Assembly (NCBI GenBank): GCA_016125095.1
Contig: WGMK01000010.1
Location: forward strand, 438,149 to 502,148
Length of the DNA stretch: 64,000 bases
From: Candidatus Hydrogenedens sp.
GTDB lineage: Bacteria; Hydrogenedentota; Hydrogenedentia; Hydrogenedentales; JAEUWI01
Direction of reading: 5' to 3'
Below are positions 1 to 64,000 of this stretch, piece by piece (position 1 is the stretch's first letter; each line of letters begins with the position of its first letter). The notes below the pieces were generated by a model. It ran no database searches, was not told where the DNA came from, and saw nothing but the letters and a program-made list of their open reading frames with translations. Made by a program: the position numbers and the translations under genes.

Positions 1-108
1 CGCCGGGGTGGAGGAGTAGGTAGCCCCCTTCCTGCGCATGGCCCGGTGTAAAGTCGACCCGCCCTGCTGGAGCTTTGCTATACTACAGGGCTGGAGGCGA
101 AGTTCCGG

Positions 109-7330: not shown

Positions 7331-7352
7331 GTGGCTCGCGGGTACGCTCGCC
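7331..7352 (+). repeat. dispersed copy of the motif gtggctcgcgggtacgctcgcc between convergent genes
   Basis: Identical 22-mer to the terminal motif of the 57-bp inverted elements at 38459-38515 (reverse) and 38776-38832. Confidence 0.45.
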
Positions 7353-7358
7353 CTCCCG

Positions 7359-18100: not shown

Positions 18101-19142
18101 AGACGGCATCCAGCATCCCGATTACGAAAAGGCGCCGATGAGCCGACGCGCGCTGCTGGGCAAGATTGCCGCGACGGGCGGCATCGCCGGTGCTGCGGGC
18201 TACGCGGCCTGGGCGCCCGAGGGCGCGCCTGGTTCGCTCCGGGACACCTCCGGCCTGCGCAGCGTGCCCAAGGTGACGCCGCTTCGACTGCCCGACTTCC
18301 GCGTAGAGAAGCCGGCGGGTGCGGCCGACGTCGGCATCGGACGCCACAGTGATCCGCTGCAGAACGACGCATCGATGTTGCGCGCGGCGCTGGACGCCAT
18401 CGGTGGCCTGCAGCACTATGTGAAGCGAGGCGACATCGTGATGGTGAAGCCCAACGTGGCCTTCGACCGTGCCCCGGCGCTGGGCGCCACTTCAAATCCG
18501 CGGTTGCTGAAAGAACTCATCCACATGCTGATTGTCGATTGCGGCGCGCAGGAAGTGCGCGTGGCCGACAATCCCATCGAGTCGCCGCCCGACTGCTTCG
18601 CCAAAAGCCGCATCGGCGAGGCGAGCCAGACGGCGGGCGGCCGCGTGTATCTGCCGGATTCCAACGCCTTCAAGATGCTGCACACGCCGGGGGCCAAGCT
18701 CATCGAGAACTGGTGGTTTTTCCACCGCCCCTTCACCAATGTGGACAAGGTGATCGGGCTGGCGCCCATCAAGGATCACAACCTGTGCAGCGCCTCGATG
18801 GGCATGAAGAACTGGTACGGGCTGCTGGGCGGCACGCGCAACCAGTTCCATCAAGACATCCACGGCATCGTGTCCGATCTCTCAGTGATGATGCGGCCGA
18901 CGCTGACGATTCTCGATGGCACCCATGTGCTCATGCAAAACGGTCCCACCGGCGGCGACCCTTCGAACGTGAAGATGGGCGATGCGGTGATTGCGGCGGT
19001 CGATCCGGTCGCTTGCGACGCCTGGGCCTTCGAGTATCTGCTCGAGCGCGGCCGCGATTACCCGAGCTATCTCTACATGGCCGAAGAGAAGGGCAGCGGG
19101 AAAGTGGATTGGGCGGGTCGCGTGAAGGAAATTCAGGCCTAG
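18087..19142 (+). CDS. Tat-exported DUF362 domain protein
   Basis: Twin-arginine motif [25 protein letters not shown]. The DUF362-like core ([45 protein letters not shown]) is present. Confidence 0.72.
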
Positions 19143-26873: not shown

Positions 26874-27156
26874 GACACACCTCTCTTAGGGTTGCGGTTG
26901 AGTACCGGTTTTTCTGCTACCTAACGACCGGTAGGTATTCTAACACGCAGGCAATCATCGGTCAAGCAAAACCTGCGCAAGCCACACAGGCAACAGCCAT
27001 TAGACCTGCCATAAAGACACCCGGTTCCAAGGCGGCTATTCCGGAGGGGTATGCATCGCAGCTCAGCGCCATAATTCGTATAATTATTAGCCGTGCGATT
27101 GACCGAGAGCCCGAGGGGGAGTAGGGTAGAGCATCGACAACGGAGGTACCAGAACC

Positions 27157-27417
27157 ATGACCGAAGCCGACCGGGCCGATTTCAGCAGCACCGACTACGA
27201 CCATCTGGCCCCGGGCATGAGTTACGGCGAGGTGGCCTCCCGCCTGAACGGCGAGGGCCTGCTGCTCTCCAACAACGTGGCCCAGCTCGAACCCGGTTTC
27301 TGGCTCTGCAGCATGACCACCCAAGTCTACGAATGGCACAACGCCGAAGGCGCGATCATCCGCGTCATGTTCGGCGACGACGGCCTGCGCGACAAATCGC
27401 AGTGCGGCCTGGGGTGA
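27157..27417 (+). CDS. small hypothetical protein (BamE/SmpA_OmlA-like fold suspected)
   Basis: 86 aa; GGAGG RBS 9 nt upstream. PGMSYGEVASRLNGEG and the C-terminal RVMFGDDG resemble the BamE-like fold. Its 3' end lies within a 47-bp direct repeat. Confidence 0.5.
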   Translation: MTEADRADFSSTDYDHLAPGMSYGEVASRLNGEGLLLSNNVAQLEPGFWLCSMTTQVYEWHNAEGAIIRVMFGDDGLRDKSQCGLG

Positions 27418-27422
27418 GGGGG
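27376..27422 (+). repeat. left copy of 47-bp direct repeat (1 mismatch to the copy at 28604..28650)
   Basis: gacgacggcctgcgcgacaaatcgcagtgcGgcctggggtgaggggg. Confidence 0.8.
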
Positions 27423-27491
27423 CCCTGGGGGCGCGGTTCGACGCGCTGGGTGTGATGAGTGTGGGAACACAACAAGTGGAGGAAGCGATAG

Positions 27492-28463
27492 ATGAACTTA
27501 TCCAATAAGTTGGATTTCGTCTTTGTTACGCTGATTACTGCGACCTTGGCGCTGTTGATTCCGCAGCCATGCGTGGCCAGCGGGCTGGGGGATGATAGAA
27601 ACGCGCAAATCGCAACAAACGAAATTGCAACTTCGGATGCCTCCACGTTTCCGCTTAACATTGCACAAGTGTCTCCAATCGACGCCCAGCGTGAATCCGG
27701 TGATGCCTATCCAGACTATTTTTTGAAGATGGTCCAGTATTGTTATGACATCCAGGGCCGCGTGGACCAAATAGGCGAATTGGAACGTGAATACTTGCGT
27801 CGGAGACTAAACGATCCGGAGATGCGGGAGTATTGGGGGTGTATGGCGGTCTTGCTTGCATTACATGATAGGTCGGAACAAACTGCTGAGGAGTTGCTAG
27901 CCTTCGTAATTAGGACCTACGGACCATGCGACGAGGATCGCGGTGACTTCAACTTGATGATGACGAAGGCTTGGGCAGTGACGATGTTGGGTTTTATAGA
28001 CTACCCGATAAGTCGGCAGGCACTGATGAGAATTGCGGCATCGATAAATGTCTCCAGTTTGTTTCAGAATTGGGAAGATGATGATTTTGTATCTGCAGTT
28101 GCTGCGTCGCCTTACTCGGCATTTCAAGATGTAATTCGCGGAGCAGCGTATAAGGGGCTTGCGATTATGGGGGGGCGTGAAAACAATGAATACTTGCGAA
28201 GCGAATTCGCTCGTATTAGAAGCGATCCGGGAGAGCTCTTATCCGGCGCCGGGCCTATGCTAAAAGGGCATGTGTATTTGTTAAAGGAGGCTCTGGCAAT
28301 CGCGGATTTTGTGGTGGATTCTGGTACGGATGCATATGTAAAGGTCTTGAGCAGCAAGGATGAATGGGGTAAAGTGTATAATAAGTATTCTCCAAGATAC
28401 GATATACCGGATGAGGAGAGAGAATCTAAAATGAAGCAGCTGGCCGAGGAGAGGGCTAAGTAG
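27492..28463 (+). CDS. secreted hypothetical protein encoded on a low-GC insert
   Basis: 323 aa; signal peptide MNLSNKLDFVFVTLITATLALLIPQPCVA. GC content is much lower than in flanking DNA. Confidence 0.6.
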   Translation: MNLSNKLDFVFVTLITATLALLIPQPCVASGLGDDRNAQIATNEIATSDASTFPLNIAQVSPIDAQRESGDAYPDYFLKMVQYCYDIQGRVDQIGELEREYLRRRLNDPEMREYWGCMAVLLALHDRSEQTAEELLAFVIRTYGPCDEDRGDFNLMMTKAWAVTMLGFIDYPISRQALMRIAASINVSSLFQNWEDDDFVSAVAASPYSAFQDVIRGAAYKGLAIMGGRENNEYLRSEFARIRSDPGELLSGAGPMLKGHVYLLKEALAIADFVVDSGTDAYVKVLSSKDEWGKVYNKYSPRYDIPDEERESKMKQLAEERAK

Positions 28464-28603: not shown

Positions 28604-28650
28604 GACGACGGCCTGCGCGACAAATCGCAGTGCAGCCTGGGGTGAGGGGG
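28604..28650 (+). repeat. right copy of 47-bp direct repeat
   Basis: gacgacggcctgcgcgacaaatcgcagtgcAgcctggggtgaggggg. Confidence 0.8.
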
Positions 28651-30220: not shown

Positions 30221-30270
30221 ACGCGCCAAGGAGGTCGCCGCGCTTCGCTCGCGATAACGAGGTTGGGTGG
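30221..30270 (+). repeat. partial dispersed copy (~80% identity) of the right arm of the 38.5 kb repeat unit
   Basis: acgcgccaaggaggtcgccgcgcttcgctcgcgataacgaggttgggtgg compared with the unit segment caaagaggttgccgcgctccgctcgcaatgacgatgttggcgg. Confidence 0.4.
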
Positions 30271-30412
30271 CTGAGGCTCCGAGACAAGGCCTATCGAGTA
30301 CGATCAAACGCATCCGGTATCGCCCTTGCGAGGAGTGAGTCTTCGAGCGACGCCGCAATCTCTCTGGCGCGCGGGCGTAGGTACCAGCCGGGTCAAACCC
30401 AGTGCAGTGGAA

Positions 30413-36989: not shown

Positions 36990-38435
36990 ATGCCCCGCAT
37001 GGCACTAATTACGATACTGCTCAATCTCATGTCACTGGCTGCTTCTCCGGGCGAGGGCATCCCCATCGAAATTGGCAGCAGCCGCGAAGTCTTTTTCGAT
37101 GCCGCGCTGGTGGAAACCTTCGACGGCACGGAACTCCGCCTGGGGCATCCGGAAGAGCAGGGCACCGTATTGCGCTTCGATGCCCCGTGGGAAGGCCGCT
37201 ATTGCGGATACGTCACGGTTTTTCAGGATGCGGACCGCTACCGCATGTACTACCGCGGGCTGCCCCAGGCGGGCAAGGACGGGTCGGATTCGGAAGTGAC
37301 CTGCTATGCCGAAAGCGCCGACGGCCTGACGTGGACCAAGCCGGACTTGGGCGTGGTGGTTCGAGCAGACGCCCCGGCGAACAACATTGTGCTGGCGGAC
37401 CACGCGCCGTTCTCGCACAACTTCGCGCCCTTTCTCGATACGAACCCCGACGCCCCGGCGGAGGAACGCTACAAGGCGCTGGCGGGCACGGCGAAGACGG
37501 GCCTGCATGCCTTCGTGTCGCCGGATGGCATCCACTGGACCCAGCAGGATGGCGCCCGGATTACCGAAGGCGCCTTCGATTCGCAGAACGTTTCCTTCTG
37601 GTCCGAGTCCGAGCAGCAATACCTCTGTTATTTCCGCACGTGGAGCAAGGGCGAGTTTGCGGGTTACCGTTCGGTCAGTCGTGCGACCTCGAAAGACTTC
37701 CGCACGTGGAGCAAGCCCGAGCCGATGACCTTTGGCAACACGCCGATGGAGCACCTCTACACCAACCAGACGGAGCCCTATTACCGCGCGCCGCATGTTT
37801 ACGTCTCACTGGCGGCGCGGTTCATGCCGGGACGGCGCGTGCTCAGCGCGGCGCAGCAGGCCGCTACCGGCGTCGAGGCGCAATACAGCGGCGATTGCAG
37901 CGACAGCGTGTTCATGAGCAGCCGCGGCGGCACGGCCTACGACCGCACGTTCATGGAAGGCTTCATCAAGCCGGGGCTGGATCCGAACGACTGGACCTCG
38001 CGTACGAATTATCCCGCGCGGGGCATTGTGCCGACGGGCGAACACGCCATGTCGTTCTACGTGCAGCGCGACTACGGCCAGCCCACCGCGCACCTCGTGC
38101 GCTACAGCCTCCGGCCCGATGGTTTCGTGTCCGTCTGGGCACCCTACGCGGGAGGAGAAATGCTGACGAAGCCCCTCGTGTTCAGCGGCAATTCGCTGCA
38201 CCTCAACTTCGCCACCTCCGCCGCGGGCGATGTCCGCGTGCAAATCGAGTCCGCCGAAGGCGAACCGCTGCCGGGGTATGCCTTCGAGGACTGCACCGAA
38301 ATCATCGGCAACAACCTCGATCACGCGGTCGAATGGAACGGCAGCACGGACGTATCCAGCCTCGCCGGGCAGGCCATCCGCCTGCATTTCCAGATGAAAG
38401 ACGCCGAACTCTACGCGATTCAGTTTGTGGAGTAA
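36990..38435 (+). CDS. secreted putative glycoside-hydrolase-like protein (beta-propeller-like fold suspected)
   Basis: Start chosen at MPRMALITILLNLMSLAASPGEG (signal peptide). W/Y-rich repeats; no precise family can be assigned. Confidence 0.45.
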   Translation: MPRMALITILLNLMSLAASPGEGIPIEIGSSREVFFDAALVETFDGTELRLGHPEEQGTVLRFDAPWEGRYCGYVTVFQDADRYRMYYRGLPQAGKDGSDSEVTCYAESADGLTWTKPDLGVVVRADAPANNIVLADHAPFSHNFAPFLDTNPDAPAEERYKALAGTAKTGLHAFVSPDGIHWTQQDGARITEGAFDSQNVSFWSESEQQYLCYFRTWSKGEFAGYRSVSRATSKDFRTWSKPEPMTFGNTPMEHLYTNQTEPYYRAPHVYVSLAARFMPGRRVLSAAQQAATGVEAQYSGDCSDSVFMSSRGGTAYDRTFMEGFIKPGLDPNDWTSRTNYPARGIVPTGEHAMSFYVQRDYGQPTAHLVRYSLRPDGFVSVWAPYAGGEMLTKPLVFSGNSLHLNFATSAAGDVRVQIESAEGEPLPGYAFEDCTEIIGNNLDHAVEWNGSTDVSSLAGQAIRLHFQMKDAELYAIQFVE

Positions 38436-38458
38436 GGGGGATAGCGGGCGATCGGTAG

Positions 38459-39088
38459 GGCGAGCGTACCCGCGAGCCACTGGGCCGGAGCGTTCGGCTC
38501 ATGGGGACATTCGCCCCACCCTGCGGCCACGGTGATGCTGGACCGGAGCGATCGTATCGCATCTTCCGTCATTGCGAACGCAGTGCGGCAACCTCCTTGG
38601 CGCGTGGGTGTCCATGCGGAGCAGGGTACCGACACCACCGTGCTGGCGGCGGTCTACATGACATTTCTGCGTCGCCGCATCAAAGAGGTTGCCGCGCTCC
38701 GCTCGCAATGACGATGTTGGCGGCCTGGAGGGAGGAAACCCGCGTGATGACGCTGTAAGCGCGGCGGCATGGTAGGGCGAATGTCCCCATGAGCCGAGCG
38801 CGCCGGTCCAGTGGCTCGCGGGTACGCTCGCCTTACCGTGCGGCCATCGTGATGTGCTGGACCGGAGCGGCTGTATCCCTCTTACCGTCATTGCGAACGA
38901 AGTGCGGCAACCTCCTTGGCGCGTGGGTGTCCATGCGGAGCAGGGTACCGACACCACCGTGCTGGCGGCGGTCTACATGACATTTCTGCGTCGCCGCATC
39001 AAAGAGGTTGCCGCGCTCCGCTTGCAATGATGACGTTGGTGGTCTGGGCTCCGGTCCCATAGGTCCCATAAGCCCCATGGGTCCCATG
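38459..39088. repeat. complex structured repeat array: two ~210-bp units, each preceded by a 57-bp element in opposite orientations, plus (G/A)GYCCCAT heptamer repeats
   Basis: 57-bp inverted repeat at 38459-38515 vs 38776-38832. Units at ~38516-38730 and ~38833-39050 are ~95% identical. Each unit contains a 27-bp internal inverted repeat (38570-38596 vs 38685-38711). Heptamers lie at 39053-39088. Confidence 0.85.
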
Positions 39089-39113
39089 AAATATTGCGCG
39101 CGGCGACGTCGCC

Positions 39114-41645
39114 CTACTTCACGACCAGGTTCACCATCTTGCCGGGGACGTAGATTTCTTTCACCAGCGTGACGCCTTCGAGGTACTTGGCGACGCCTTC
39201 GTCGGCTTTGGCGGCGGCGAGGATGTCGTCTTTGCCGGCGTCGGCGGGCACGGCCACCTTCGCGCGGAGCTTGCCGTTCACCTGCACGGGCAGCTCGATG
39301 GTGGATTCCACCAGCAGCGATTCGTCGTAGGCGGGCCAGGGCTCGTAGGCGAGGGTATCGGCATGGCCGAGGCGCTGCCAGAGTTCTTCCGCGAGATGCG
39401 GCGCGAAGGGCGCGAGCACCAGCACGAATTGCTCCGCAGCGGCGCGGTCGACCGATTCGGCCTTGAGCGCGGCGTTCACGAATTCCATCATGCGGGAGAT
39501 GGCGGTGTTGAACAGCAGGTGCTCGATATCGTGCCCCACGGCCTTGATGGTCTTGTGCAGCTGCTTGGTCACTTCGGCGCTGCCGCTTTCCGCCACTATG
39601 CGCGGGTGCAGGCCGCCGTCTTCCGTCACATAGAGCGACCACACGCGCTTGAGGAAGCGGAACACGCCCTGCACGCCTTCGTCGTTCCACGGCTTCTCGC
39701 GGTCGAGCGGCCCCATGAACATCTCGTACAACCGCATCGAATCCGCGCCGTACTCGCGGATCACGTCGTCGGGATTGACTACGTTAAACCGCGACTTCGA
39801 CATTTTTTCGACCTGGGTATTTACCGGCTCGCTGGATTCCTTGGCATGCCACTGGTCGCCGCGCTTTTCCACCTCGTGCGGGTAGTAATACTTCCCCTTC
39901 GCATCGCGGTACGAATACGCGAGAATCATCCCTTGGTTAAACAGCTTCTGGAAAGGCTCGCTGGTGCTGACGTGTCCGGCGTCGTAGAGGACCTTGTGCC
40001 AGAAGCGCGAGTAGAGCAGGTGGAGCACGGCGTGTTCGGCGCCGCCGATGTAAAGATCGACGGGCATCCAGTATTGCTCGGCCTCCTTGCTCCAGGCCTC
40101 GTCCGGGTTGCGCGGATCGCAGAAGCGCAGGTAGTACCAGCACGAGCCCGCCCACTGCGGCATGGTGTTGGTTTCGCGCTGCGCGGGCGCGCCGGTCTCG
40201 GGGTCCGTGGTATTCAGCCATTCCTCGGCGCGGGCGAGCGGCGGCTGGCCGTCGGCCGTGGGTTTGTAGTCCGTCAGTTCGGGCAGCAGCACCGGCAGGT
40301 CGTTCATCGGCAGCGCCTTCACGGTGCCGTCCTCGAGCCGGACAATCGGGAAGGGCTCGCCCCAATAGCGCTGGCGCGAAAACAGCCAGTCGCGTAGTTT
40401 GTAGTTCACGGTGCCCTTGCCGATGCCCTCGGCCTCGAGCCACGCCGCCATCTTCTTCTTGGCGGTCGGCACGTCGAGTCCGTCGAGGAAGCCGGAATTC
40501 ACGAGCGTGCCGTTGCCGGTCCAGGCCTCTTCCTGCACATCCACCTCGCCGCCGCCGATTACCTCGATGATATCGAGGCCGAACTTCTTCGCGAACTCGT
40601 GGTCGCGGGTGTCGTGCGCGGGCACGGCCATAATCGCGCCGTAGCCGTATTCAGCCAGCACGTAGTCCGCCGTCCAGATGGGCACGAGCTTGCCGTTCAC
40701 CGGATTGATGGCATGCGCCCCGGTGAATACGCCGGTCTTCTGCTGCTCGTCGCGCATGCGTTCCTGCGCGCTCTTCTTCTTCGTAGCCTCGACATAGGCC
40801 AGCACCTCGGCGCGCTGGGCCTCCGAGGCTATCTCGAGCGTGAGGGCGTGGTCGGGCGCGAGCACGCAATAGGTGGCACCGAAGAGCGTATCGGGCCGCG
40901 TGGTGAACACGGTGAACTCGTGCCCGGCATCCGCCACCTTGAAGGTCACGTCCGCGCCTTCGCTGCGGCCGATCCACTCGCGCTGCATGGCCTTGATGCC
41001 TTCCGGCCAGTCCAGATCGTCCAGTCCCGACAGCAACTGCTCGGCGTACTTGGTGATGCGCAGCATCCACTGCCGCATCATCCGCTTCTCCACCGGGTCG
41101 CCCGTCTCCACGTAGACGCCGTCCTTCACCTCTTCATTGGCGAGCACGGTGTTCAGCGCGGGGCACCAGTTCACCGGCGCCTCGATTTCATAGGCCAGCC
41201 CGCGTTCGAGCAGCACGGTGAAAATCCACTGCGTCCACTTGTAGTAATCCGGGTCCGTCGTGTTGATCTCGCGGTCCCAGTCGTAGGAAAGCCCCAGCGA
41301 CTGAATCTGCTGACGGAAGGTGTCGCAGTTCTTGTTGGTAATGATGGCCGGATGCTCGCCCGTGCGCACGGCATGGCGCTCGGCCGGCAGGCCGAAGGCG
41401 TCCCAGCCCATCGGGTGCAGCACGTTGAAGCCCTGCATCCGCTTGTAGCGCGCGACGATGTCGGTGGCGGTGTAGCCTTCCGGATGCCCCACATGCAGCC
41501 CCGCGCCGCTCGGATAGGGGAACATGTCCAGCACGTAGTACTTGGGCCTGGACGTGTCGAGCGTGGTCTTGAAGGTCTTCTTCCCGACCCAGAAGTCCTG
41601 CCATTTCTTCTCAATCGCGTGGAATTCGTACGTGCCGCCGGACAT
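39114..41645 (-). CDS. leuS: leucyl-tRNA synthetase
   Basis: HIGH-region [18 protein letters not shown] and a KMSKS motif ([10 protein letters not shown]). Start chosen at [16 protein letters not shown]. Confidence 0.93.
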
Positions 41646-41834
41646 GGTTATACATACCTCAGAATGCGTGTAATGCGGGGAAAGCGCCAAGGATAGCACA
41701 CGAAAGCCGCGCGTTGCGCCAAGACGGTAAACTCTTTGTGCGGCTGCGCCGCAAGGTGGAGGCTCTCTCTTCGAGAGGATGCCATGCTATCGTATCCACC
41801 TGAACCGCAATTCCTTCCGGAGACGTCCCGTTTC

Positions 41835-42737
41835 ATGTGTCATCTCCTTGCTGTTTTTCTGATGCTGCTGTGCGGAGGCGCCGCCGCCCAGCCCGGCCCG
41901 CCGCCGCGTCCGTCGGTGCCTCCGCGTCCGGTCGCGCCGACTTCCCCTACGCCGGAGGGCGAGGGCCAGGCCGAGTTGCGCATCACCATCGAGCCCGGTC
42001 CCCCGCAGCCTGGCGCGCCGGCGATGCAGGCGGTGGTGCACTATCAGGACCGTGTTGCATGCACACGGGCGCTGCCGGCGGGTGCGAACCTGGCGCTGCC
42101 GTTGAGCGACGGCGTGGATGTCACGGGCGATGGCGTGCCCGACGCGGTCATCGAGCTCTATACCGGCGGGGCGCACTGCTGCTACAACTACCTGATTCTC
42201 GGCGGCGACAACCCCTGCATCCCGGCGGCCACGCTGAACGCGGCCAACAGCGGCGTGGAAATCCAGAACATCGACGACGACCCGGCGGCGGAATTCCTCG
42301 CGGCGGACTGGACGCTCGAGTATTGGAACGCCGACTACGCCGACAGCCTGTCGTTCTACGCCATCCTTGAGTTCAAGGACGGGGCGCTTGTACCGGACCA
42401 GCAGGCGATGCAGTTGCCTGCGCCGGAACCCGAGGATAAGGAGAAGCTCGAGGCAATTTTCGCGGAAACCTGGAACGAACCCGACCCGCCCGGGTGGCAT
42501 TGCGAGCCCCGGGTGCCGCGCGCGTGGTACGAGCGCGCGGGCAAGCTGGTTTACGGCGGCAACGGCGAAGTCGCTCTCGCGCTCATGCGGGCCACCTTCC
42601 AAGGCACCGAAGCCGAGGCAAAGGCCGCCTGCGAGGGGTTCTTCGCCCAGTTGTCCAAGAGCCCTTGGTGGCCCGGCATCGCCGCCATGAACGGCTGGGA
42701 AGGCGAAACCCCGGAAACCATCTGCGCCGAACGATAG
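41835..42737 (+). CDS. secreted hypothetical protein
   Basis: Start chosen at MCHLLAVFLMLLCGGAAAQP (signal peptide). A Pro-rich linker follows, and no known motifs are recognisable. Confidence 0.45.
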   Translation: MCHLLAVFLMLLCGGAAAQPGPPPRPSVPPRPVAPTSPTPEGEGQAELRITIEPGPPQPGAPAMQAVVHYQDRVACTRALPAGANLALPLSDGVDVTGDGVPDAVIELYTGGAHCCYNYLILGGDNPCIPAATLNAANSGVEIQNIDDDPAAEFLAADWTLEYWNADYADSLSFYAILEFKDGALVPDQQAMQLPAPEPEDKEKLEAIFAETWNEPDPPGWHCEPRVPRAWYERAGKLVYGGNGEVALALMRATFQGTEAEAKAACEGFFAQLSKSPWWPGIAAMNGWEGETPETICAER

Positions 42738-43100
42738 AGATGGATGGCATATTCCGGCCTAACCACGGCAGTGGTTAATTGATTGTAGCCCCGGGTCGGT
42801 CGGCGTCTTCGACGACCCACCCGGGGTAAAGCGGCCGCCATGACAACCGCGGAAGCGGTTGATGAAATTCTCGCTTGGCCAAGCCGGTTCAGCAACCGCT
42901 GCCGCGGTTGGTTGTGGACCGCGTTTGTCCCCGGGTAGCTCCGCGAAGCGCGGCGCAACCCGGGCTTCGATAAATCAACTGCTGCCGCAGTTGGGAAGAG
43001 CGGACCGTTACGCCTGCACGATACTTCCGCCGTCGGGACGCTGGCGCGCCCTCGTAAGTGGTTGCTATACTTCCGGCTTCGTATTCACCGGGAGCCGTAC

Positions 43101-44342
43101 ATGAGCCACGAAACCACCATTACCGTCGAGGTCCGCGAGGACCATTTGGACCTGTTGGCGCGCACGAAGCCGATGACGGCGCTGGCGGAACTGATCTGGA
43201 ACGCGCTGGACGCCGAGGCGACCGAGGTGCGGGTGGTCTTCGAGGAGAACGAACTGGGCGGGCTGGAGGCGGTGCGTATCGTGGACAACGGCACGGGCCT
43301 GCGGCACGACGACGCGCTCATCGTCTTCCGGAACCTGGGTGGCTCTTGGAAGCGCCAGGGGCCGCGCACGACGGACCGCCCGCGCGCACTGCACGGCAAG
43401 TTCGGCAAGGGCCGATTCCGCGCGTTTTCGCTGGGACACGACGTGCGCTGGAATTCGGTGTTCGAAGACCAGGGCCAGCGCCGTACCTTCACCGTGAGCG
43501 GCAAGGCCTCGCGCCTGGGCGAGTTCGTGGTGAGCGATGCCGAGGGGGCCGATGCCGCTGCCGGCATGCAGGTGGAAATCACCAACGTGTCGAACGCCGC
43601 AAACCTGTTGCGCGGCGTGAAGGCGAACCAGGAAGTGACCGACACCTTCGCGCTCTACCTGCGCCAATACCCGGGCGTGCGGATTATCTACGACAACACC
43701 CCGCTCGACCCCGCGAATTCGGAGCGGCACTTTACCGAGTACGCCTTGGAGCCGATGGTGACCGAGAACGGCGATCCGGTGACGGCAGCGCTGACGGTGG
43801 TCGAGTGGAACATTTCCGGCAAGCGTGGCGTGTTCCTGTGCGACGCCGAGGGTTTCGCATTGCACAACGGGCTGCCCCGGCTGCATTTCCGGGGCTTCAG
43901 TTATACCGCGTACATCAAGTCGTCGCACATCGAGGCGCTCGAGCGGCAGGGCCTGCTGCAGGCGGGAGAGCTTTCGGCCGATGTGCGACAATTGCTCGAC
44001 GCAGCGCGCGCCAAGCTGCGCGAGCACTTCGCGCTGCGCGAAGCCGAGCGCGCCCAGGACGTGCTCGCCGACTGGCGGGAGATGGGATTATACCCCTACG
44101 CAGGCGAGCCTCGGGATGAAAATGAATCCAACGAGCGCCGCATCTTCGATATCTACGCCACCCACTTGAACCAGATCTCGCCCGATTTCGCTTCGTGGCC
44201 ACTACAGAACAAGCGTCTGGTCCTTCAGCTCATCCAGGAACTCGTGCGCACCGAGCCGACCCGGGTCGCCCATATTCTCGACAGCGTCATCGAATTTCCG
44301 GAAGAGAAGGAGGGGGAAATTCTGGAGTTGGTACAGTCATGA
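43101..44342 (+). CDS. GHKL-superfamily ATPase (HATPase_c_3/MORC-like Bergerat fold) with ~250 aa C-terminal domain of unknown function
   Basis: Bergerat-fold motifs ELIWNALDA (ExxxNxxD), VDNGTGL (DxGxG) and GKFGKGRF (GxxGxG). The stop overlaps the downstream gene start (ATGA). Confidence 0.65.
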   Translation: MSHETTITVEVREDHLDLLARTKPMTALAELIWNALDAEATEVRVVFEENELGGLEAVRIVDNGTGLRHDDALIVFRNLGGSWKRQGPRTTDRPRALHGKFGKGRFRAFSLGHDVRWNSVFEDQGQRRTFTVSGKASRLGEFVVSDAEGADAAAGMQVEITNVSNAANLLRGVKANQEVTDTFALYLRQYPGVRIIYDNTPLDPANSERHFTEYALEPMVTENGDPVTAALTVVEWNISGKRGVFLCDAEGFALHNGLPRLHFRGFSYTAYIKSSHIEALERQGLLQAGELSADVRQLLDAARAKLREHFALREAERAQDVLADWREMGLYPYAGEPRDENESNERRIFDIYATHLNQISPDFASWPLQNKRLVLQLIQELVRTEPTRVAHILDSVIEFPEEKEGEILELVQS

Positions 44343-46243
44343 TTCTCACCACGTCCCTTGCTTTCGTCGCTGCCACGCTCGCCGCCGATTCGCTTCCGGA
44401 ATCCATCCGGCTGCCGTACAACCATCCGGGGCTGGTGGTCGACCTCGGCGTGGGGCTGTGGGCTTCGCCCTTCCCGATGGATTTCGACGGCGATGGCGAC
44501 CCGGACTTGCTGGTGGCCTGTGCCGACACGCCGAGCAACGGCATCTACTTCTTCGAGAACCCCGGCGGCTCGGACACGCCGGTGTTCAAGCCCGGGGTGC
44601 GCATCGGCGAGGCGGTGCACAACACCACAATTTCCTATACCGGCGGCAAGCCGATCATGGCACGTCCGAAGGAAGTCTATCCGGACTTCGGCCCGGACGG
44701 CTGGGGCAAGCGCGAAAAGATAGACTTTGTGTTCAAGGAGGATCTCGGCAAGACGCGGGCGAACCAATGGAAGTTCGCCGACTACGACGGCAACGGCGCG
44801 CGCGACCTGGTCCTCGGCATTGGCGTGTGGGCGGACTACGGCTGGGACGACGCCTGGAACGAACGCGGCGAATGGCAGAACGGGCCGCTGCACGGCTATG
44901 TGTACGTGGTGCCGAATACGGGAACGAATGACGCGCCGGAATACGGCGAGCCTTTCCGTGTGCAGGCGGGCGGCAGCGATGTCGATACCTACGGCTGCCC
45001 CTCGCCCAACTTCGCGGACTTCGACAACGATGGCGACCTCGACCTGTTGACCGGGGAGTTTCTGGACCGGCTGACCTACTTCGAGAACACCGGTACGCGC
45101 TCCGAGCCGGTTTATGCCGCCGGGCGGTTCATCCAGCAGGACCGGAAGACCCTGCATCTCGACCTGCAAATGCTCCAGGTGGTGGCCTTCGATTGGAACC
45201 AGGACGGCCACACGGACGTCATCGTCGGCAAGGAAGACGGTCGTGTGGTGTACCTGCGCCACACGGGCTGGCAGCAAGGTGGCGTGCCCTTGTTCGATCC
45301 GCCGGTGTATTTCCAGCAGGAGGCGGTGCATGTGAAAACCGGCGCACTATCGACGCCGTATGGCATCGACTGGGACGGCGATGGCGACGACGATATTCTC
45401 TCCGGCGACACGGCGGGCTACCTCAACTTCGTTGAAAATCTCGGGGGCGATCCGCCGCAGTGGGCGGCACCGGTTTACCTGAAGGCCGACGGCGAGACGA
45501 TCCGCATCCAGGCCGGTCCGAACGGCAGCATCCAGGGGCCAGCCGAGGCGAAGTGGGGCTACACCGTGCTGAACGCCGCCGACTGGAACCACGACGGCCT
45601 GCCAGACCTCGTCATCAACTCCATCTGGGGGCGCGTCGAGTGGTTCGAGAACATCGGCACGCGCACCGAGCCGAAGCTCAAGGCCGCCCAACCCATCGAG
45701 GTGGAATGGAAGGGGAAGACGCCCAAGCCCGCATGGACCTGGTGGAAGCCGAAGGGCGACGAACTGGTGACGCAATGGCGCACGACGCCCATCGTCTACG
45801 ACTGGAACGGAGACGGCCTGAACGACCTCGCCATGCTCGACACCGAGGGGTACTTTTCCCTGTACGAGCGCGCGAAGAAGCGGCGCAAGCTGGTGCTGCT
45901 GCCGCCGCAGCGCGTGTTTCTAGACGAAGCCGGCCAGCCGCTGCGCCTGAACGAGCGCACCGCGGGCGGCAGCGGACGCCGCAAAATCGCCGTGACCGAC
46001 TGGGATGGCGACGGCCTGCCCGATTTGCTACTGAACAGTTCCAGCGCGGACTGGATGCGCTGCGTGTCGGCGGAAGGCGGCACCTGGCGTTTCGCCGCGC
46101 CGCAATTGCTCGACGGCCGCAAGGTGGCCGGCCACACCAGTTGCCCCGCCACGGTGGATTGGGACCAGAACGGCATTCCGGATCTGCTGGTAGGGGCCGA
46201 AGACGGCTTCTTCTACTACCTGAAGAATCCGCGTTCGAAGTAG
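44339..46243 (+). CDS. secreted FG-GAP/VCBS-repeat beta-propeller protein
   Basis: Signal peptide MILTTSLAFVAATLAA. Nine or more FG-GAP-like repeats (DFDGDGDPDLLV, DYDGNGARDLVLG, DWDGDGDDDILSGD, DWNGDGLNDLAMLD ...). Confidence 0.75.
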   Translation: MILTTSLAFVAATLAADSLPESIRLPYNHPGLVVDLGVGLWASPFPMDFDGDGDPDLLVACADTPSNGIYFFENPGGSDTPVFKPGVRIGEAVHNTTISYTGGKPIMARPKEVYPDFGPDGWGKREKIDFVFKEDLGKTRANQWKFADYDGNGARDLVLGIGVWADYGWDDAWNERGEWQNGPLHGYVYVVPNTGTNDAPEYGEPFRVQAGGSDVDTYGCPSPNFADFDNDGDLDLLTGEFLDRLTYFENTGTRSEPVYAAGRFIQQDRKTLHLDLQMLQVVAFDWNQDGHTDVIVGKEDGRVVYLRHTGWQQGGVPLFDPPVYFQQEAVHVKTGALSTPYGIDWDGDGDDDILSGDTAGYLNFVENLGGDPPQWAAPVYLKADGETIRIQAGPNGSIQGPAEAKWGYTVLNAADWNHDGLPDLVINSIWGRVEWFENIGTRTEPKLKAAQPIEVEWKGKTPKPAWTWWKPKGDELVTQWRTTPIVYDWNGDGLNDLAMLDTEGYFSLYERAKKRRKLVLLPPQRVFLDEAGQPLRLNERTAGGSGRRKIAVTDWDGDGLPDLLLNSSSADWMRCVSAEGGTWRFAAPQLLDGRKVAGHTSCPATVDWDQNGIPDLLVGAEDGFFYYLKNPRSK

Positions 46244-46349
46244 CCCGCCGCCGGTAGGCATGGCTCGGAAACGCCGCTCGGAGTGCGCATCGTTTACTTG
46301 CCCATAGGGCGGGCTTTATAATCCGCAGTCTTTGGCGCAAGGAGTCGAT

Positions 46350-63767: not shown

Positions 63768-64000
63768 AGCGTCGAGCAGGCCTGTAAGCCGGGTTCTGTC
63801 TAGGGGCCGGAGCCCCCGAGACGGCCATTCATCTGGGATACGCGTCGCCGCGCACCTCAAGCTTCCTACCCGGGAGCAACGCGGGCCGCGCCATAGCTCC
63901 CCTATTTGGAATTGCACCGGGTGGGGTTTAGCGAGCCGCCGTGTCGCCACGGCGCTGGTGCGCTCTTACCGCACCTTTTCAACCTTGCCTGTGCCTTACG
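63768..64000 (-). ncRNA. rnpB: RNase P RNA (type A), 3' ~230 nt; gene continues beyond window end
   Basis: The minus strand reads ...GGUGCGGUAAGAGCGCACC...CCACCCGGUGCAAUUCCAAAUAGGGG...CCCGGGUAGGAAGCUUGAG...CCAGAUGAAUGG...ACAGAACCCGGCUUA, which is collinear with E. coli M1 RNA. Confidence 0.85.

What the first reader, a model, noticed from the sequence alone, without database searches (positions are those of the whole stretch)
38459..39088. Large structured repeat array between convergent genes (candidate novel ncRNA/REP-MITE-like family)
The 680-bp gap between the glycoside-hydrolase-like gene and leuS contains four elements. (i) A 57-bp element present in both orientations (38459-38515 and 38776-38832). 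(ii) Two ~210-bp units with ~95% identity. (iii) Within each unit, a 27-bp near-perfect inverted repeat (tcattgcgaacgcagtgcggcaacctc / gaggttgccgcgctccgctcgcaatga) that can form a long stem enclosing a ~90-nt loop. (iv) Four tandem GGTCCCAT-like heptamers. The ORF-track ORFs inside it are duplicated high-GC read-throughs with no coding character. The arrangement looks like a structured RNA or REP/BIME-type element array and may act as a terminator or mRNA-stability element for both convergent genes.
Basis: seen in the sequence. Interest (0 to 1): 0.7.

Follow-up and report, generated by a model that had tools for sequence, protein, structure and literature searches.

The report
Cluster of REP-type palindromic repeats
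The 678-bp gap downstream of leuS in this Candidatus Hydrogenedens genome is a mosaic of two already-described kinds of bacterial repetitive extragenic palindromes (GTAG-tagged and CGTC-tagged REPs) arranged as inverted pairs and duplicated once in tandem, so it is an ordinary repeat cluster and not a new RNA gene.

Summary
The gap 38436-39113 holds an 86-nt element in both orientations, two 193-nt units that are 93% identical, a long inverted repeat inside each unit, and a short 9-mer (not 7-mer) tandem array.

All the long stems come from two families of about 25-nt hairpin "words".
- The 86-nt elements are inverted pairs of GT(A/G)G-GGCGA-[3 bp/loop/3 bp]-GAGCC words. This is the classic REP signature (5' GTAG plus an imperfect palindrome), in a REPIN-like doublet.
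- The arms of the 193-nt units are CGTC-ATTGCGA-[mini-hairpin]-GCAAC-CTC words. These fit the CGTC-tagged REP superfamily of Di Nocera et al. 2013.

In both families the inner stem covaries. The CGTC-type word recurs in Alpha- and Gammaproteobacteria, Cyanobacteria, Helicobacter prophages and tailed phages.

The 89-nt spacer of the units was found nowhere else, so the 193-nt unit is a local duplication and not a dispersed family. Rfam gives nothing.

The array sits at a lineage-specific inversion and insertion breakpoint. No RAYT was found in the DNA available.

The likely roles are selfish single-strand DNA hairpin repeats and, once transcribed, 3'-end hairpins for the two convergent genes. 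This role is inferred, not shown.

Verdict: a new member of a known kind, of low to moderate interest.

The parts
38446..38531 (.). H1: inverted dimer (REPIN-like) of two GTAG-type REP words, folding into one 86-nt imperfect hairpin
   Evidence: Inverted repeat I1. Fold -44.6/-47.6 kcal/mol. Words listed.
38455..38478 (+). GTAG-tagged REP word GTAG-GGCGA-GCG-TACC-CGC-GAGCC
   Evidence: Structure and covariation.
38496..38519 (-). GTAG-type REP word, tag GTGG: GTGG-GGCGA-ATG-TCCC-CAT-GAGCC
38536..38728 (+). U1: 193-nt unit, a dimer of two CGTC-tagged REP words in inverted orientation (tags outward) around an 89-nt structured spacer
   Evidence: D1 and I2. Fold -85.9 kcal/mol as RNA (z = -7.1) and -50.5 kcal/mol as DNA (z = -6.9).
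38567..38595 (+). CGTC-tagged REP word CGTC-ATTGCGA-AC-GCA-GT-GCG-GCAAC-CTC (left arm of U1)
   Evidence: Family structure.
38596..38684 (+). Spacer of U1, with complementary ends and three small predicted hairpins. It is identical in U2 and was found nowhere else.
   Evidence: Negative searches.
38685..38713 (-). CGTC-tagged REP word CGTC-ATTGCGA-GC-GGA-GC-GCG-GCAAC-CTC (right arm of U1)
   Evidence: A near-identical word occurs in a Thiotrichales MAG (L006).
38760..38845 (.). H2: the same GTAG-type dimer as H1 but inverted (87% complementary to H1)
   Evidence: Fold -54.3 kcal/mol, z = -4.5.
38855..39047 (+). U2: second copy of the 193-nt unit (93% identical to U1). Words at 38886-38914 (+) and 39004-39032 (-, tag decayed to CATC).
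39053..39087 (+). Tandem 9-mer GGTCCCATA x 3.9. It is local only and no family was found.
   Evidence: Matches of the same 18-mer in viral contigs are coding collagen-like repeats.
37029..38435 (+). Upstream convergent gene (hypothetical secreted protein, GC168_07610). It is absent from the syntenic region of the two closest relatives.
39114..41645 (-). leuS, the convergent gene on the other side
30229..30363 (.). Second locus in the window with two diverged CGTC-type words in divergent orientation (30229-30260 on -, 30320-30363 on +, long-centre variant). It shares the 3' extension CTCYYTGGCGCG with the U arms.
   Evidence: (I2, I3).
7333..7357 (-). Solitary GTAG-type word (tag GGAG), 96% identical to the word at 38453-38480. 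It lies between convergent ORFs.
   Evidence: I4.

Best explanation
The gap is a cluster of repetitive extragenic palindromes (REPs) of two known superfamilies.

The two 86-nt elements are inverted dimers of GTAG-tagged REP words, the REPIN architecture. The two 193-nt units are inverted dimers of CGTC-tagged REP words separated by an 89-nt structured spacer. The module [GTAG dimer + CGTC dimer], about 318 bp, has been duplicated once in tandem, with the GTAG dimer in opposite orientation in the two copies. A short 9-mer microsatellite lies at the leuS end.

What is shown:
- the tags;
- the imperfect-palindrome shape, with covariation in the inner stems;
- extragenic location;
- dimer organisation;
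- cross-phylum occurrence of the CGTC-type word;
- lineage-restricted occurrence of the GTAG-type word;
- position at a synteny breakpoint.

What is inferred:
- The words are propagated as single-stranded DNA hairpins. For the GTAG type this would be by a RAYT (Y1/HUH) transposase encoded elsewhere in the genome. For the CGTC type the mobilising enzyme is unknown, as in the literature.
- Recombination or replication slippage among such palindromes produced the tandem duplication and helped the inversion.
- Because the array lies in the 3' region of two convergent genes that have no intrinsic terminators, the transcribed hairpins (about -45 to -86 kcal/mol each) probably act as 3'-end barriers against exonucleases and against read-through into the opposing gene.
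For: Anatomy.

GTAG-type words:
- 14 distinct words from the window and the two closest relatives fit .....(((..(((....)))..))) with 97.6% of cells paired.
- There are 13 double-change cells (GCG/CGC, ATG/CAT, GAC/GTC, GCC/GGC, GTG/CAC), and 0 of 500 shuffles reach this.
- The 5' tags are GTAG, GTGG or GTAA.
- REPs are defined by a 5' GTAG plus an imperfect hairpin with an essential mismatch, bound as ssDNA by TnpA-REP (PMC3479197).
- RAYT genes of Gloeocapsa, Kovacikia and a Chloroflexota plasmid are flanked by GTAGG+palindrome repeats of the same form.
- REPINs are two inverted REPs plus a spacer, with common spacings of 71 and 110 bp (PMC3337134).

CGTC-type words:
- 52 distinct words are 97.5% paired. 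The inner helix shows GC 38 / AU 6 / GU 5 / CG 1, and 0 of 500 shuffles reach this.
- Of 138 partner words not constrained by the scan pattern, the 5' tag is TGTC in 80, CGTC in 27 and CCTC in 2. The tail is CTC in 83, and CCA in 15 of 16 words in a Helicobacter canis prophage.
- This is the grammar described for CGTC-tagged REPs: tag CGTC/TGTC/CCTC, stem starting with AT, tail about CCA, mostly dimers, spacers of 20-100 bp with complementary ends or small stem-loops, and no dedicated transposase (PMC3733652).
- Full-length matches lie in unannotated spacers of Methylosinus, Novosphingobium (at least 40 places), Methylobacterium, Aulosira, Calothrix, Fischerella, Legionella and Psychrobacter plasmids, and in phages.

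Breakpoint:
- Relative to L013, the block leuS..FG-GAP is inverted.
- The upstream gene is absent from both relatives.
- The relatives carry GTAG-type dimers at the leuS 3' end.

No intrinsic terminator is present. Rfam gives nothing for the gap or for other loci dense in CGTC-type words, including an E-value-threshold scan of one of them.
Against: - No RAYT or IS200-like gene was found in the 64-kb window or in about 160 kb of related loci.
- Genome-wide copy number is unknown. Only three loci in 64 kb carry such words.
- Single words are not thermodynamically exceptional under nearest-neighbour parameters (z about 0). The case for their hairpins rests on covariation.
- The CGTC-type word has a 5-bp outer stem, an internal loop, a 2-3-bp inner stem and a triloop. 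The published CGTC-1..4 families have 8-9-bp stems with 4-5-nt loops. I could not read the published consensus figure, so assignment to a named family is open.
- The 89-nt spacer is longer than almost all convergent dimers sampled (6-38 nt).
- There is no expression data, so any RNA-level function is inference.
Confidence: 0.82

Rival explanations
1. Each 193-nt unit is a gene for a novel structured small RNA (or a cis-regulatory RNA), and the long stem and internal hairpins are its functional fold.
For: Very stable predicted folds with three internal hairpins. The two copies keep an identical interior. G-U pairs are tolerated more than A-C in the word family, so one strand is the folding strand.
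Against: - No Rfam hit even at E <= 10.
- No promoter-like or terminator-like site.
- The interior was not found elsewhere: a 20-mer scan of metagenome contigs gave only chance matches, a stem-pattern scan of GTDB genomes gave only chance matches, and a six-frame protein search found nothing.
- Relatives with 88-91% LeuS identity lack the unit.
- The only conserved parts are REP words that occur singly, in either orientation, and in unrelated contexts.
- With two near-identical copies there is no covariation evidence for the interior.
Confidence: 0.05
2. The units are MITEs, meaning deletion derivatives of an insertion sequence with terminal inverted repeats, mobilised by a DDE transposase.
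For: Size (about 150-190 nt), terminal inverted repeats of about 29-38 nt, intergenic position, two copies.
Against: - The flanks of the arms (CTTC | CGTCATT ... AATGACG | ATGT) show no target-site duplication.
- The 'TIRs' are members of a word family that mostly occurs as short dimers or singletons with hypervariable centres. MITE ends do not behave this way.
- No other copy of the unit, and no transposase, is present in the window or in relatives.
- The two copies are adjacent in tandem, not dispersed.
Confidence: 0.04
3. The array is a REP cluster, as in the best explanation, but it is purely selfish or neutral DNA that accumulated at a rearrangement scar and has no role in expression of the flanking genes.
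For: - It lies exactly where synteny with relatives breaks, next to a gene the relatives lack.
- Content differs among close relatives.
- One word tag has decayed (CATC).
- Word orientation relative to neighbouring genes is only weakly biased in the wider family (63 sense against 45 antisense).
Against: REPs are preferentially found downstream of genes, between unidirectional and convergent ORFs, and are reported to affect mRNA stability and termination (PMC3733652). Neither convergent gene has an intrinsic terminator. This is only indirect evidence.
Confidence: 0.35
4. The CGTC-type words are single-strand DNA initiation or priming signals, or other replication-linked hairpins, and not transposon-like repeats.
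For: The commonest centres are GCGAAGC, GCGGAGC, GCGCAGC and GCGTAGC. These are the GCGNAGC 'mini-hairpin DNA' motif. That motif is far more stable as DNA than as RNA and is known at phage G4 and ssiA priming sites (PMC13037366). The words are frequent in phage genomes.
Against: They occur many times per replicon (18 in a 45.7-kb prophage, at least 40 places in one Novosphingobium replicon), in both orientations, and mostly as dimers. This fits dispersed repeats better than origins. No primase link was tested.
Confidence: 0.04

Closest known systems
GTAG-tagged REPs and REPINs mobilised by RAYT (TnpA-REP) transposases (E. coli REP/BIME; Pseudomonas fluorescens REPINs)
   Same: A 5' GTAG-like tetranucleotide at the foot of a roughly 20-nt imperfect palindrome with a conserved internal mismatch (tandem G-A here). 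Extragenic. Occurs as inverted doublets that fold into one long hairpin. Lineage-specific sequence. Variable orientation.
   Different: The word sequence itself (GGCGA...GAGCC) is specific to this Hydrogenedens clade. The tag varies (GTAG, GTGG, GTAA). No RAYT gene could be found in the DNA available. Copy number is unknown.
CGTC-tagged REP superfamily (Di Nocera, De Gregorio & Rocco 2013; includes Neisseria dRS3 and Rickettsia RPE-4/-6)
   Same: Terminal CGTC/TGTC tag. Stem beginning with A-T pairs. A short conserved unpaired tail. Predominantly inverted dimers with 20-100-bp spacers that have complementary ends and small stem-loops. Occurrence in many phyla, especially Alphaproteobacteria. 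No flanking transposase.
   Different: This word has an almost invariant 5-bp clamp (ATTGC/GCAAT) enclosing a variable mini-hairpin (often GCGNAGC), not a continuous 8-9-bp stem. The tail is CTC in most cases (CCA in Helicobacter canis). Hydrogenedentota and tailed phages are not among the hosts listed in the paper. I could not check the published family consensus, which is only in a figure.
E. coli BIME-2 arrays (tandemly amplified REP pairs)
   Same: A mosaic in which REP dimers with defined spacers are repeated head-to-tail in one intergenic region, often between convergent genes. This comparison rests on my own knowledge of Bachellier et al.
   Different: Here there are only two repeats of the module. 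The module mixes two unrelated REP superfamilies. IHF and gyrase binding motifs were not examined.

Membership tests
GTAG-tagged REP / REPIN-RAYT system | Conserved 5' GTAG tetranucleotide at the foot of the hairpin | tested here: met
   The window words start GTAG (38455, 38772), GTGG (38519 rc), GTAA (38836 rc) and GGAG (7357 rc). Relatives have GTAG, GTGG or GTAA.
GTAG-tagged REP / REPIN-RAYT system | Short imperfect palindrome (20-40 nt) with an internal mismatch, with structure maintained | tested here: met
   GGC-GA-NNN-loop-NNN-GA-GCC. 97.6% of cells paired, 13 compensatory cells, 0/500 shuffles.
GTAG-tagged REP / REPIN-RAYT system | Two REPs in inverted orientation forming a hairpin (REPIN) | tested here: met
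   H1 38446-38531 and H2 38760-38845. L013 9816-9885 and 13028-13101.
GTAG-tagged REP / REPIN-RAYT system | High copy number in extragenic space of the genome | tested here: inconclusive
   All 5 words in the window and all 9 in L012/L013 are intergenic, but only 64 kb of the genome could be read.
GTAG-tagged REP / REPIN-RAYT system | Cognate RAYT gene flanked by the same REPs | tested here: inconclusive
   tblastn with five RAYTs and one IS200 TnpA found nothing (E > 0.1) in the window or in 8 related loci. The genome is not in the searchable collections.
CGTC-tagged REP superfamily | Unpaired terminal tag CGTC (variants TGTC, CCTC) | tested here: met
   Window: CGTC at 38567, 38713 rc and 38886, decayed to CATC at 39032 rc. 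Family: 109 of 138 unconstrained words carry TGTC, CGTC or CCTC.
CGTC-tagged REP superfamily | Stem beginning with complementary A-T residues in the first and second positions | tested here: met
   ATTGC...GCAAT in 36 of 41 words when these positions were left free. The window has ATTGC...GCAAC, so the first pair is A-C.
CGTC-tagged REP superfamily | Short unpaired tail, consensus CCA | tested here: inconclusive
   A conserved 3-nt tail exists. It is CTC in the window and in 83 of 138 family words, and CCA in 15 of 16 words of the H. canis prophage.
CGTC-tagged REP superfamily | Stems of 8-9 bp and loops of 4-5 nt (families CGTC-1 to -4) | tested here: inconclusive
   Here there is a 5-bp outer stem, an internal loop, a 2-3-bp inner stem and a 3-nt loop. 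The published consensus sequences are in a figure that is not held, and the supplements contain no matching string.
CGTC-tagged REP superfamily | Mostly inverted dimers with spacers of 20-100 bp, often with complementary ends or stem-loops | tested here: met
   U1 and U2 have an 89-nt spacer with complementary ends and three predicted hairpins.
MITE | Terminal inverted repeats flanked by a target-site duplication, with a related autonomous IS | tested here: not met
   No duplication at the unit ends. No transposase in the window or relatives. No dispersed copies.
Any Rfam RNA family | Match to a curated covariance model | tested here: not met
   Nothing above E = 0.4 in the gap, and those matches are eukaryotic snoRNA/miRNA models. 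No gathering-score hit in the window except RNase P. None in 8 word-rich loci.

The most novel reading that the evidence does not exclude
The CGTC-type word that forms the arms of the two units has an almost invariant ATTGC/GCAAT clamp around a variable GCGNAGC-type DNA mini-hairpin. It may not be RAYT cargo at all. It could be an element spread across phyla by tailed phages and prophages, or one that uses a still unknown ssDNA-acting enzyme. It is dense in a Helicobacter canis prophage and between head genes of a group of uncultured phages. If so, this would give a handle on the open question of what mobilises CGTC-tagged REPs. A related reading is that the 318-bp GTAG-dimer + CGTC-dimer module is itself an amplifiable composite unit.
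Probability: 0.12. Interest if true: 0.55.

Novelty: new member of a known kind. Interest (0 to 1): 0.25.

Why it matters
It removes a false lead: the striking long stems are REP dimers, not a new RNA gene.

It extends both REP superfamilies to Hydrogenedentota, a candidate phylum that is not among the host phyla named in the Di Nocera 2013 text I read.

It gives a concrete example of a REP cluster at an inversion and insertion breakpoint between close relatives.

A side result may be of modest use to people working on REP biology. The CGTC-type word is nearly identical in sequence across at least four bacterial phyla (Hydrogenedentota, Pseudomonadota, Cyanobacteriota, Campylobacterota) and is frequent in phage genomes. 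The enzyme that moves CGTC REPs is still unknown.

Tried and rejected
1. Exact look-up of the window's LeuS in public assemblies, with three start variants including P0001. It is not on record, so the rest of the genome could not be read.

2. GTDB genome scan with the inner-stem pattern GCGGCAACCTC-N75-105-GAGGTTGCCGC. It gave 11 hits, all chance except one unrelated member of the word family.

3. Six-frame translation of the unit searched against 5.8 billion proteins. Nothing at E <= 0.01.

4. Metagenome scan with a 20-mer from the unit's spacer. Three chance matches.

5. The GTAG-type word pattern in IMG/VR gave 73 hits. By my own rough estimate this is no more than chance would give for 15 specified bases. 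In plasmids there were only partial matches. So this word is lineage-specific.

6. Literature searches with peptide and DNA strings derived from the words found nothing relevant. The relevant paper turned up only through a keyword search.

7. A search for a partner transposase. A motif pre-filter found one IS200-like TnpA next to a CGTC dimer (L069), but it has its own different end hairpins, so I treated it as coincidence. RAYT loci on plasmids are flanked by GTAG repeats, not by CGTC words.

8. Leaving the outer stem of the CGTC word free to test covariation. It is nearly invariant, so it is conserved as sequence and not only as structure.

9. The 9-mer array as a dispersed family. Viral matches are coding collagen-like GPM/GPI repeats and are unrelated.

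10. A REP remnant at the other inversion junction (46233-46282). No significant similarity.

11. Homologues of the upstream gene as a route to orthologous units. The nearest is only 66% identical, so there is no orthologous spacer to compare.
Full report
SOURCE AND SETTING

The window comes from a Candidatus Hydrogenedens sp. MAG. Its LeuS is 100% identical to an NCBI protein of that name on a 539-kb contig. The upstream gene is GC168_07610.

The finding lies in the 678-bp gap 38436-39113. On one side is a hypothetical secreted protein (37029-38435, + strand; no Pfam domain). On the other is leuS (39114-41645, - strand). The two genes converge on the gap.

CHECK OF THE OBSERVATION

- The element 'in both orientations' is 86 nt (38446-38531 and 38760-38845), 87% complementary. 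Gapless identity is 87% inverted against 29% direct.
- The two units are 193 nt (38536-38728 and 38855-39047) and 93% identical.
- Each unit contains 38-nt arms, 84% complementary, 71 nt apart.
- The tandem repeat has period 9, not 7: GGTCCCATA x 3.9 at 39053-39087.

Predicted folding is far beyond shuffled controls. The whole gap gives z = -12 (+ strand) and -19 (- strand). Single units give z = -6 to -8.

The ORFs inside the gap have no Pfam hit. Their translations have no relatives among 5.8 billion proteins.

WHAT THE REPEATS ARE MADE OF

All the long stems are built from two kinds of short 'word'.

The first kind makes up the 86-nt elements. Read on one strand it is GT(A/G)G-GGCGA-NNN-(3-4 nt)-NNN'-GAGCC. 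Each 86-nt element is two such words in inverted orientation around a 17-nt loop.
- The same word occurs alone at 7333-7357.
- It occurs nine more times in intergenic spacers of the two closest relatives I could fetch: L012 (91% LeuS identity) and L013 (88%).
- Across 14 distinct words the outer GGC/GCC pairs are constant. A tandem G-A/G-A mismatch follows.
- The inner three pairs covary: GCG/CGC, ATG/CAT, GAC/GTC, GCC/GGC, GTG/CAC.
- 97.6% of cells are paired, 13 cells are changed on both sides, and no shuffle of 500 reaches this.

A conserved 5' GTAG at the foot of an imperfect palindrome with an essential internal mismatch is the definition of a REP. TnpA-REP (RAYT) binds it as single-stranded DNA (PMC3479197). 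Two inverted REPs with a spacer are a REPIN (PMC3337134).

For comparison I fetched RAYT genes on plasmids of Gloeocapsa, Kovacikia and a Chloroflexota bacterium. They are flanked by GTAGG+palindrome repeats of the same general form.

The Hydrogenedens word itself is lineage-specific. There are no full-length matches in plasmids. In viral contigs the hit count is, by my rough estimate, at chance level. It is also absent from leuS loci of more distant Hydrogenedentota (81-83% LeuS identity).

The second kind forms the arms of the 193-nt units: CGTC-ATTGCGA-[centre]-GCAAC-CTC.
- It lies at 38567-38595 (+), 38685-38713 (-), 38886-38914 (+) and 39004-39032 (-; tag decayed to CATC).
- Two diverged copies sit at 30229-30363.
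- The free centres are not random. They read stem(2-3)-GNA-stem'-(GAA/GTG/GCG). Examples are GCGAAGC-GAA, GCGGAGC-GTG, GCCGAAGGC-GTG, ACGAAGT-GTG and GTGAAAC-GAA.
- On 52 distinct words the structure ...(((((..((...))...)))))... is 97.5% paired. The inner helix shows GC 38 / AU 6 / GU 5 / CG 1, and 0 of 500 shuffles reach this.
- When the outer stem was left free in a second scan it was ATTGC/GCAAT in 36 of 41 cases. So it is conserved as sequence, not only as pairing.
- In a Helicobacter canis prophage (18 words in 45.7 kb) the same clamp encloses inner hairpins of very different lengths.
- Words occur singly, as convergent pairs (spacers mostly 6-38 nt), as divergent pairs (about 15 nt) and in tandem (about 14 nt).
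- By a crude gene call they are enriched in spacers: 55% of words against 20% non-coding sequence. Orientation bias is weak.
- Full-length matches lie in unannotated spacers of plasmids of Methylosinus, Novosphingobium (at least 40 places in one replicon), Methylobacterium, Aulosira, Calothrix, Fischerella, Legionella, Psychrobacter and Halomonas.
- A Thiotrichales MAG carries a nearly identical word.
- About 30 of the IMG/VR contigs belong to one group of tailed phages. Their words lie next to portal and major-head genes.

COMPARISON WITH THE LITERATURE

String searches for the words or their translations found nothing. A keyword search led to Di Nocera, De Gregorio & Rocco 2013 (PMC3733652). 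That paper sorts REPs into GTAG-tagged and CGTC-tagged superfamilies. It describes CGTC elements as follows:
- a terminal CGTC, often TGTC or CCTC;
- stems that begin with A-T pairs;
- a short unpaired tail, consensus CCA;
- mostly inverted dimers;
- spacers of 20-100 bp that often have complementary ends or small stem-loops;
- presence in several phyla, mainly Alphaproteobacteria;
- no dedicated transposase.

I tested the tag on 138 partner words that my scan patterns did not constrain. The tag is TGTC in 80, CGTC in 27 and CCTC in 2. The tail is CTC in 83. In H. canis the tail is CCA in 15 of 16.

So the arms of the units are CGTC-tagged REPs, and each 193-nt unit is a CGTC dimer with an 89-nt structured spacer.

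One point remains open. The published families have continuous 8-9-bp stems and 4-5-nt loops. This word has a 5-bp clamp, an internal loop and a mini-hairpin. The published consensus is in a figure I could not read, and the supplements contain no matching string. I therefore cannot say whether this is one of CGTC-1 to -4 or a further family.

IS THE 193-NT UNIT ITSELF A FAMILY?

I found no evidence that it is.
- A 20-mer from its spacer gave only chance matches in the metagenome contigs.
- The inner-stem pattern gave only chance matches in GTDB genomes.
- The six-frame protein search was empty.
- The window has no third copy.
- L012 and L013 have none.

These were exact-match scans, so diverged copies could have been missed. 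On present evidence the two units are one local tandem duplication of a module [GTAG dimer + CGTC dimer] of about 318 bp. The GTAG dimer is flipped between the copies.

Rfam has no match for the gap (E <= 10). It has none for the window apart from RNase P, and none for eight word-rich loci.

GENOMIC CONTEXT

Alignment with L012 and L013 shows three things.
- In both relatives leuS is followed, on the same strand, by argC.
- In the window the 7-kb block leuS..FG-GAP (39112-46233) is inverted relative to L013.
- The upstream gene 37029-38435 has no counterpart in either relative. Its nearest homologues are 66% identical.

In L013 both ends of the inverted block lie in spacers full of hairpin words. 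The leuS-argC spacer carries a GTAG-type dimer that is 75% identical to H1/H2. The array therefore sits at a lineage-specific inversion and insertion junction. No REP remnant was detectable at the other junction in the window.

MECHANISM

Shown:
- tags, hairpin shape with covariation, dimer organisation and extragenic position;
- distribution of the two word types;
- the breakpoint location.

Inferred:
- The words act and spread as single-stranded DNA hairpins. For the GTAG type this follows from the biochemistry of REP-RAYT.
- For the CGTC type there is a hint. The commonest centres are GCGNAGC, the 'mini-hairpin DNA' motif, which is much more stable as DNA than as RNA (PMC13037366).
- G-T is tolerated more often than A-C in the inner helix. 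This means one particular strand folds.
- No RAYT or IS200-like gene is present in the window or in the related loci. The rest of the genome was out of reach, so the enzyme link is untested.

At the RNA level, both convergent genes lack intrinsic terminators. Their transcripts would run into hairpins of -45 to -86 kcal/mol. A role as a 3' barrier or stabiliser is therefore reasonable and in line with what is reported for REPs. No expression data exist.

Single words are not unusually stable by nearest-neighbour energies.

VERDICT

The REP/BIME-type reading is right and the 'novel ncRNA family' reading is not supported.

The array is a new member (in a new host phylum) of two known REP superfamilies, arranged as dimers and duplicated once. 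Interest is low to moderate.

The most interesting loose end is the CGTC-type word. Its sequence is nearly the same across at least four bacterial phyla, it is frequent in phages, and its mobilising enzyme is still unknown.

Noticed in passing
window 27376-27422 and 28604-28650: A 47-nt direct repeat, 98% identical, with copies 1228 nt apart. The first copy is the 3' end of ORF 27093-27455 (+). Between the copies lies one ORF (27492-28463, 323 aa) with no Pfam hit. It looks like a duplicated target or att site around a roughly 1.2-kb insertion.
   Followed up: partly
window 39112-46233 against L013 5492-12955: A 7-kb block (leuS, a 300-aa protein, an HATPase_c_3 protein, an FG-GAP protein) is inverted relative to a relative with 88% LeuS identity. 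L012 shows yet another order. The breakpoints fall in spacers that carry hairpin-word repeats.
   Followed up: partly
window 30229-30363: A second intergenic locus with two diverged CGTC-type words in divergent orientation. One is a long-centre variant (GGAGTGAGTCTTCGAGCGACGCC) that also occurs in L012 18453-18489 and L013 near 18745-18785. It shares the extension CTCYYTGGCGCG with the unit arms.
   Followed up: partly
L302 (BK070053.1, Helicobacter canis prophage), whole record: 18 CGTC/TGTC-tagged words in 45.7 kb, mostly as convergent dimers. The ATTGCGA...GCAAT-CCA clamp is constant and the inner hairpins vary greatly in length. The prophage also encodes a retron-type reverse transcriptase and a DnaG primase.
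   Followed up: partly
IMG/VR loci L018-L136, e.g. L078, L083, L019, L024: About 30 contigs share portal, major head and other structural genes (PHROGs hits) and carry CGTC-type words between these genes. A further set of 8 contigs has a pattern match inside a P2-like major head gene, probably a coding coincidence.
   Followed up: partly
L069 40-700 and 780-858: An IS200-like element (TnpA with HUH and Tyr motifs, and its own end hairpins CCACCCGCTAAGCGGGTGG / CCACCCGCTATGCGGGTGG) lies about 80 nt from a CGTC-type dimer. The dimer is outside the IS. This may be an example of an IS inserting next to a REP.
   Followed up: partly
L013 5202-5482; L006 6760-6815 and 7020-7075: Further hairpin-word families in the same kinds of spacer. 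Examples are GTAGGTCGGGGTTCTACCCCGGC and GAGTGCGGCAGACTTGCTGCCGC in L013, and GTAGGTTGGGCAAAGCGAAGCGTGCCCAACAT (read on the reverse strand) next to the CGTC dimers in the Thiotrichales MAG.
   Followed up: no
window 63769-64000 (-): The 3' two-thirds of a bacterial class A RNase P RNA, cut off by the window end (173 bits).
   Followed up: no
window 39053-39087: The 9-mer array would read GPIGPISPMGPM in one frame. The same 18-mer in viral contigs is almost always inside long ORFs with collagen-like GPM/GPI repeats or a conserved MGPMGPVPVVA motif. It is therefore unrelated to this intergenic copy.
   Followed up: yes
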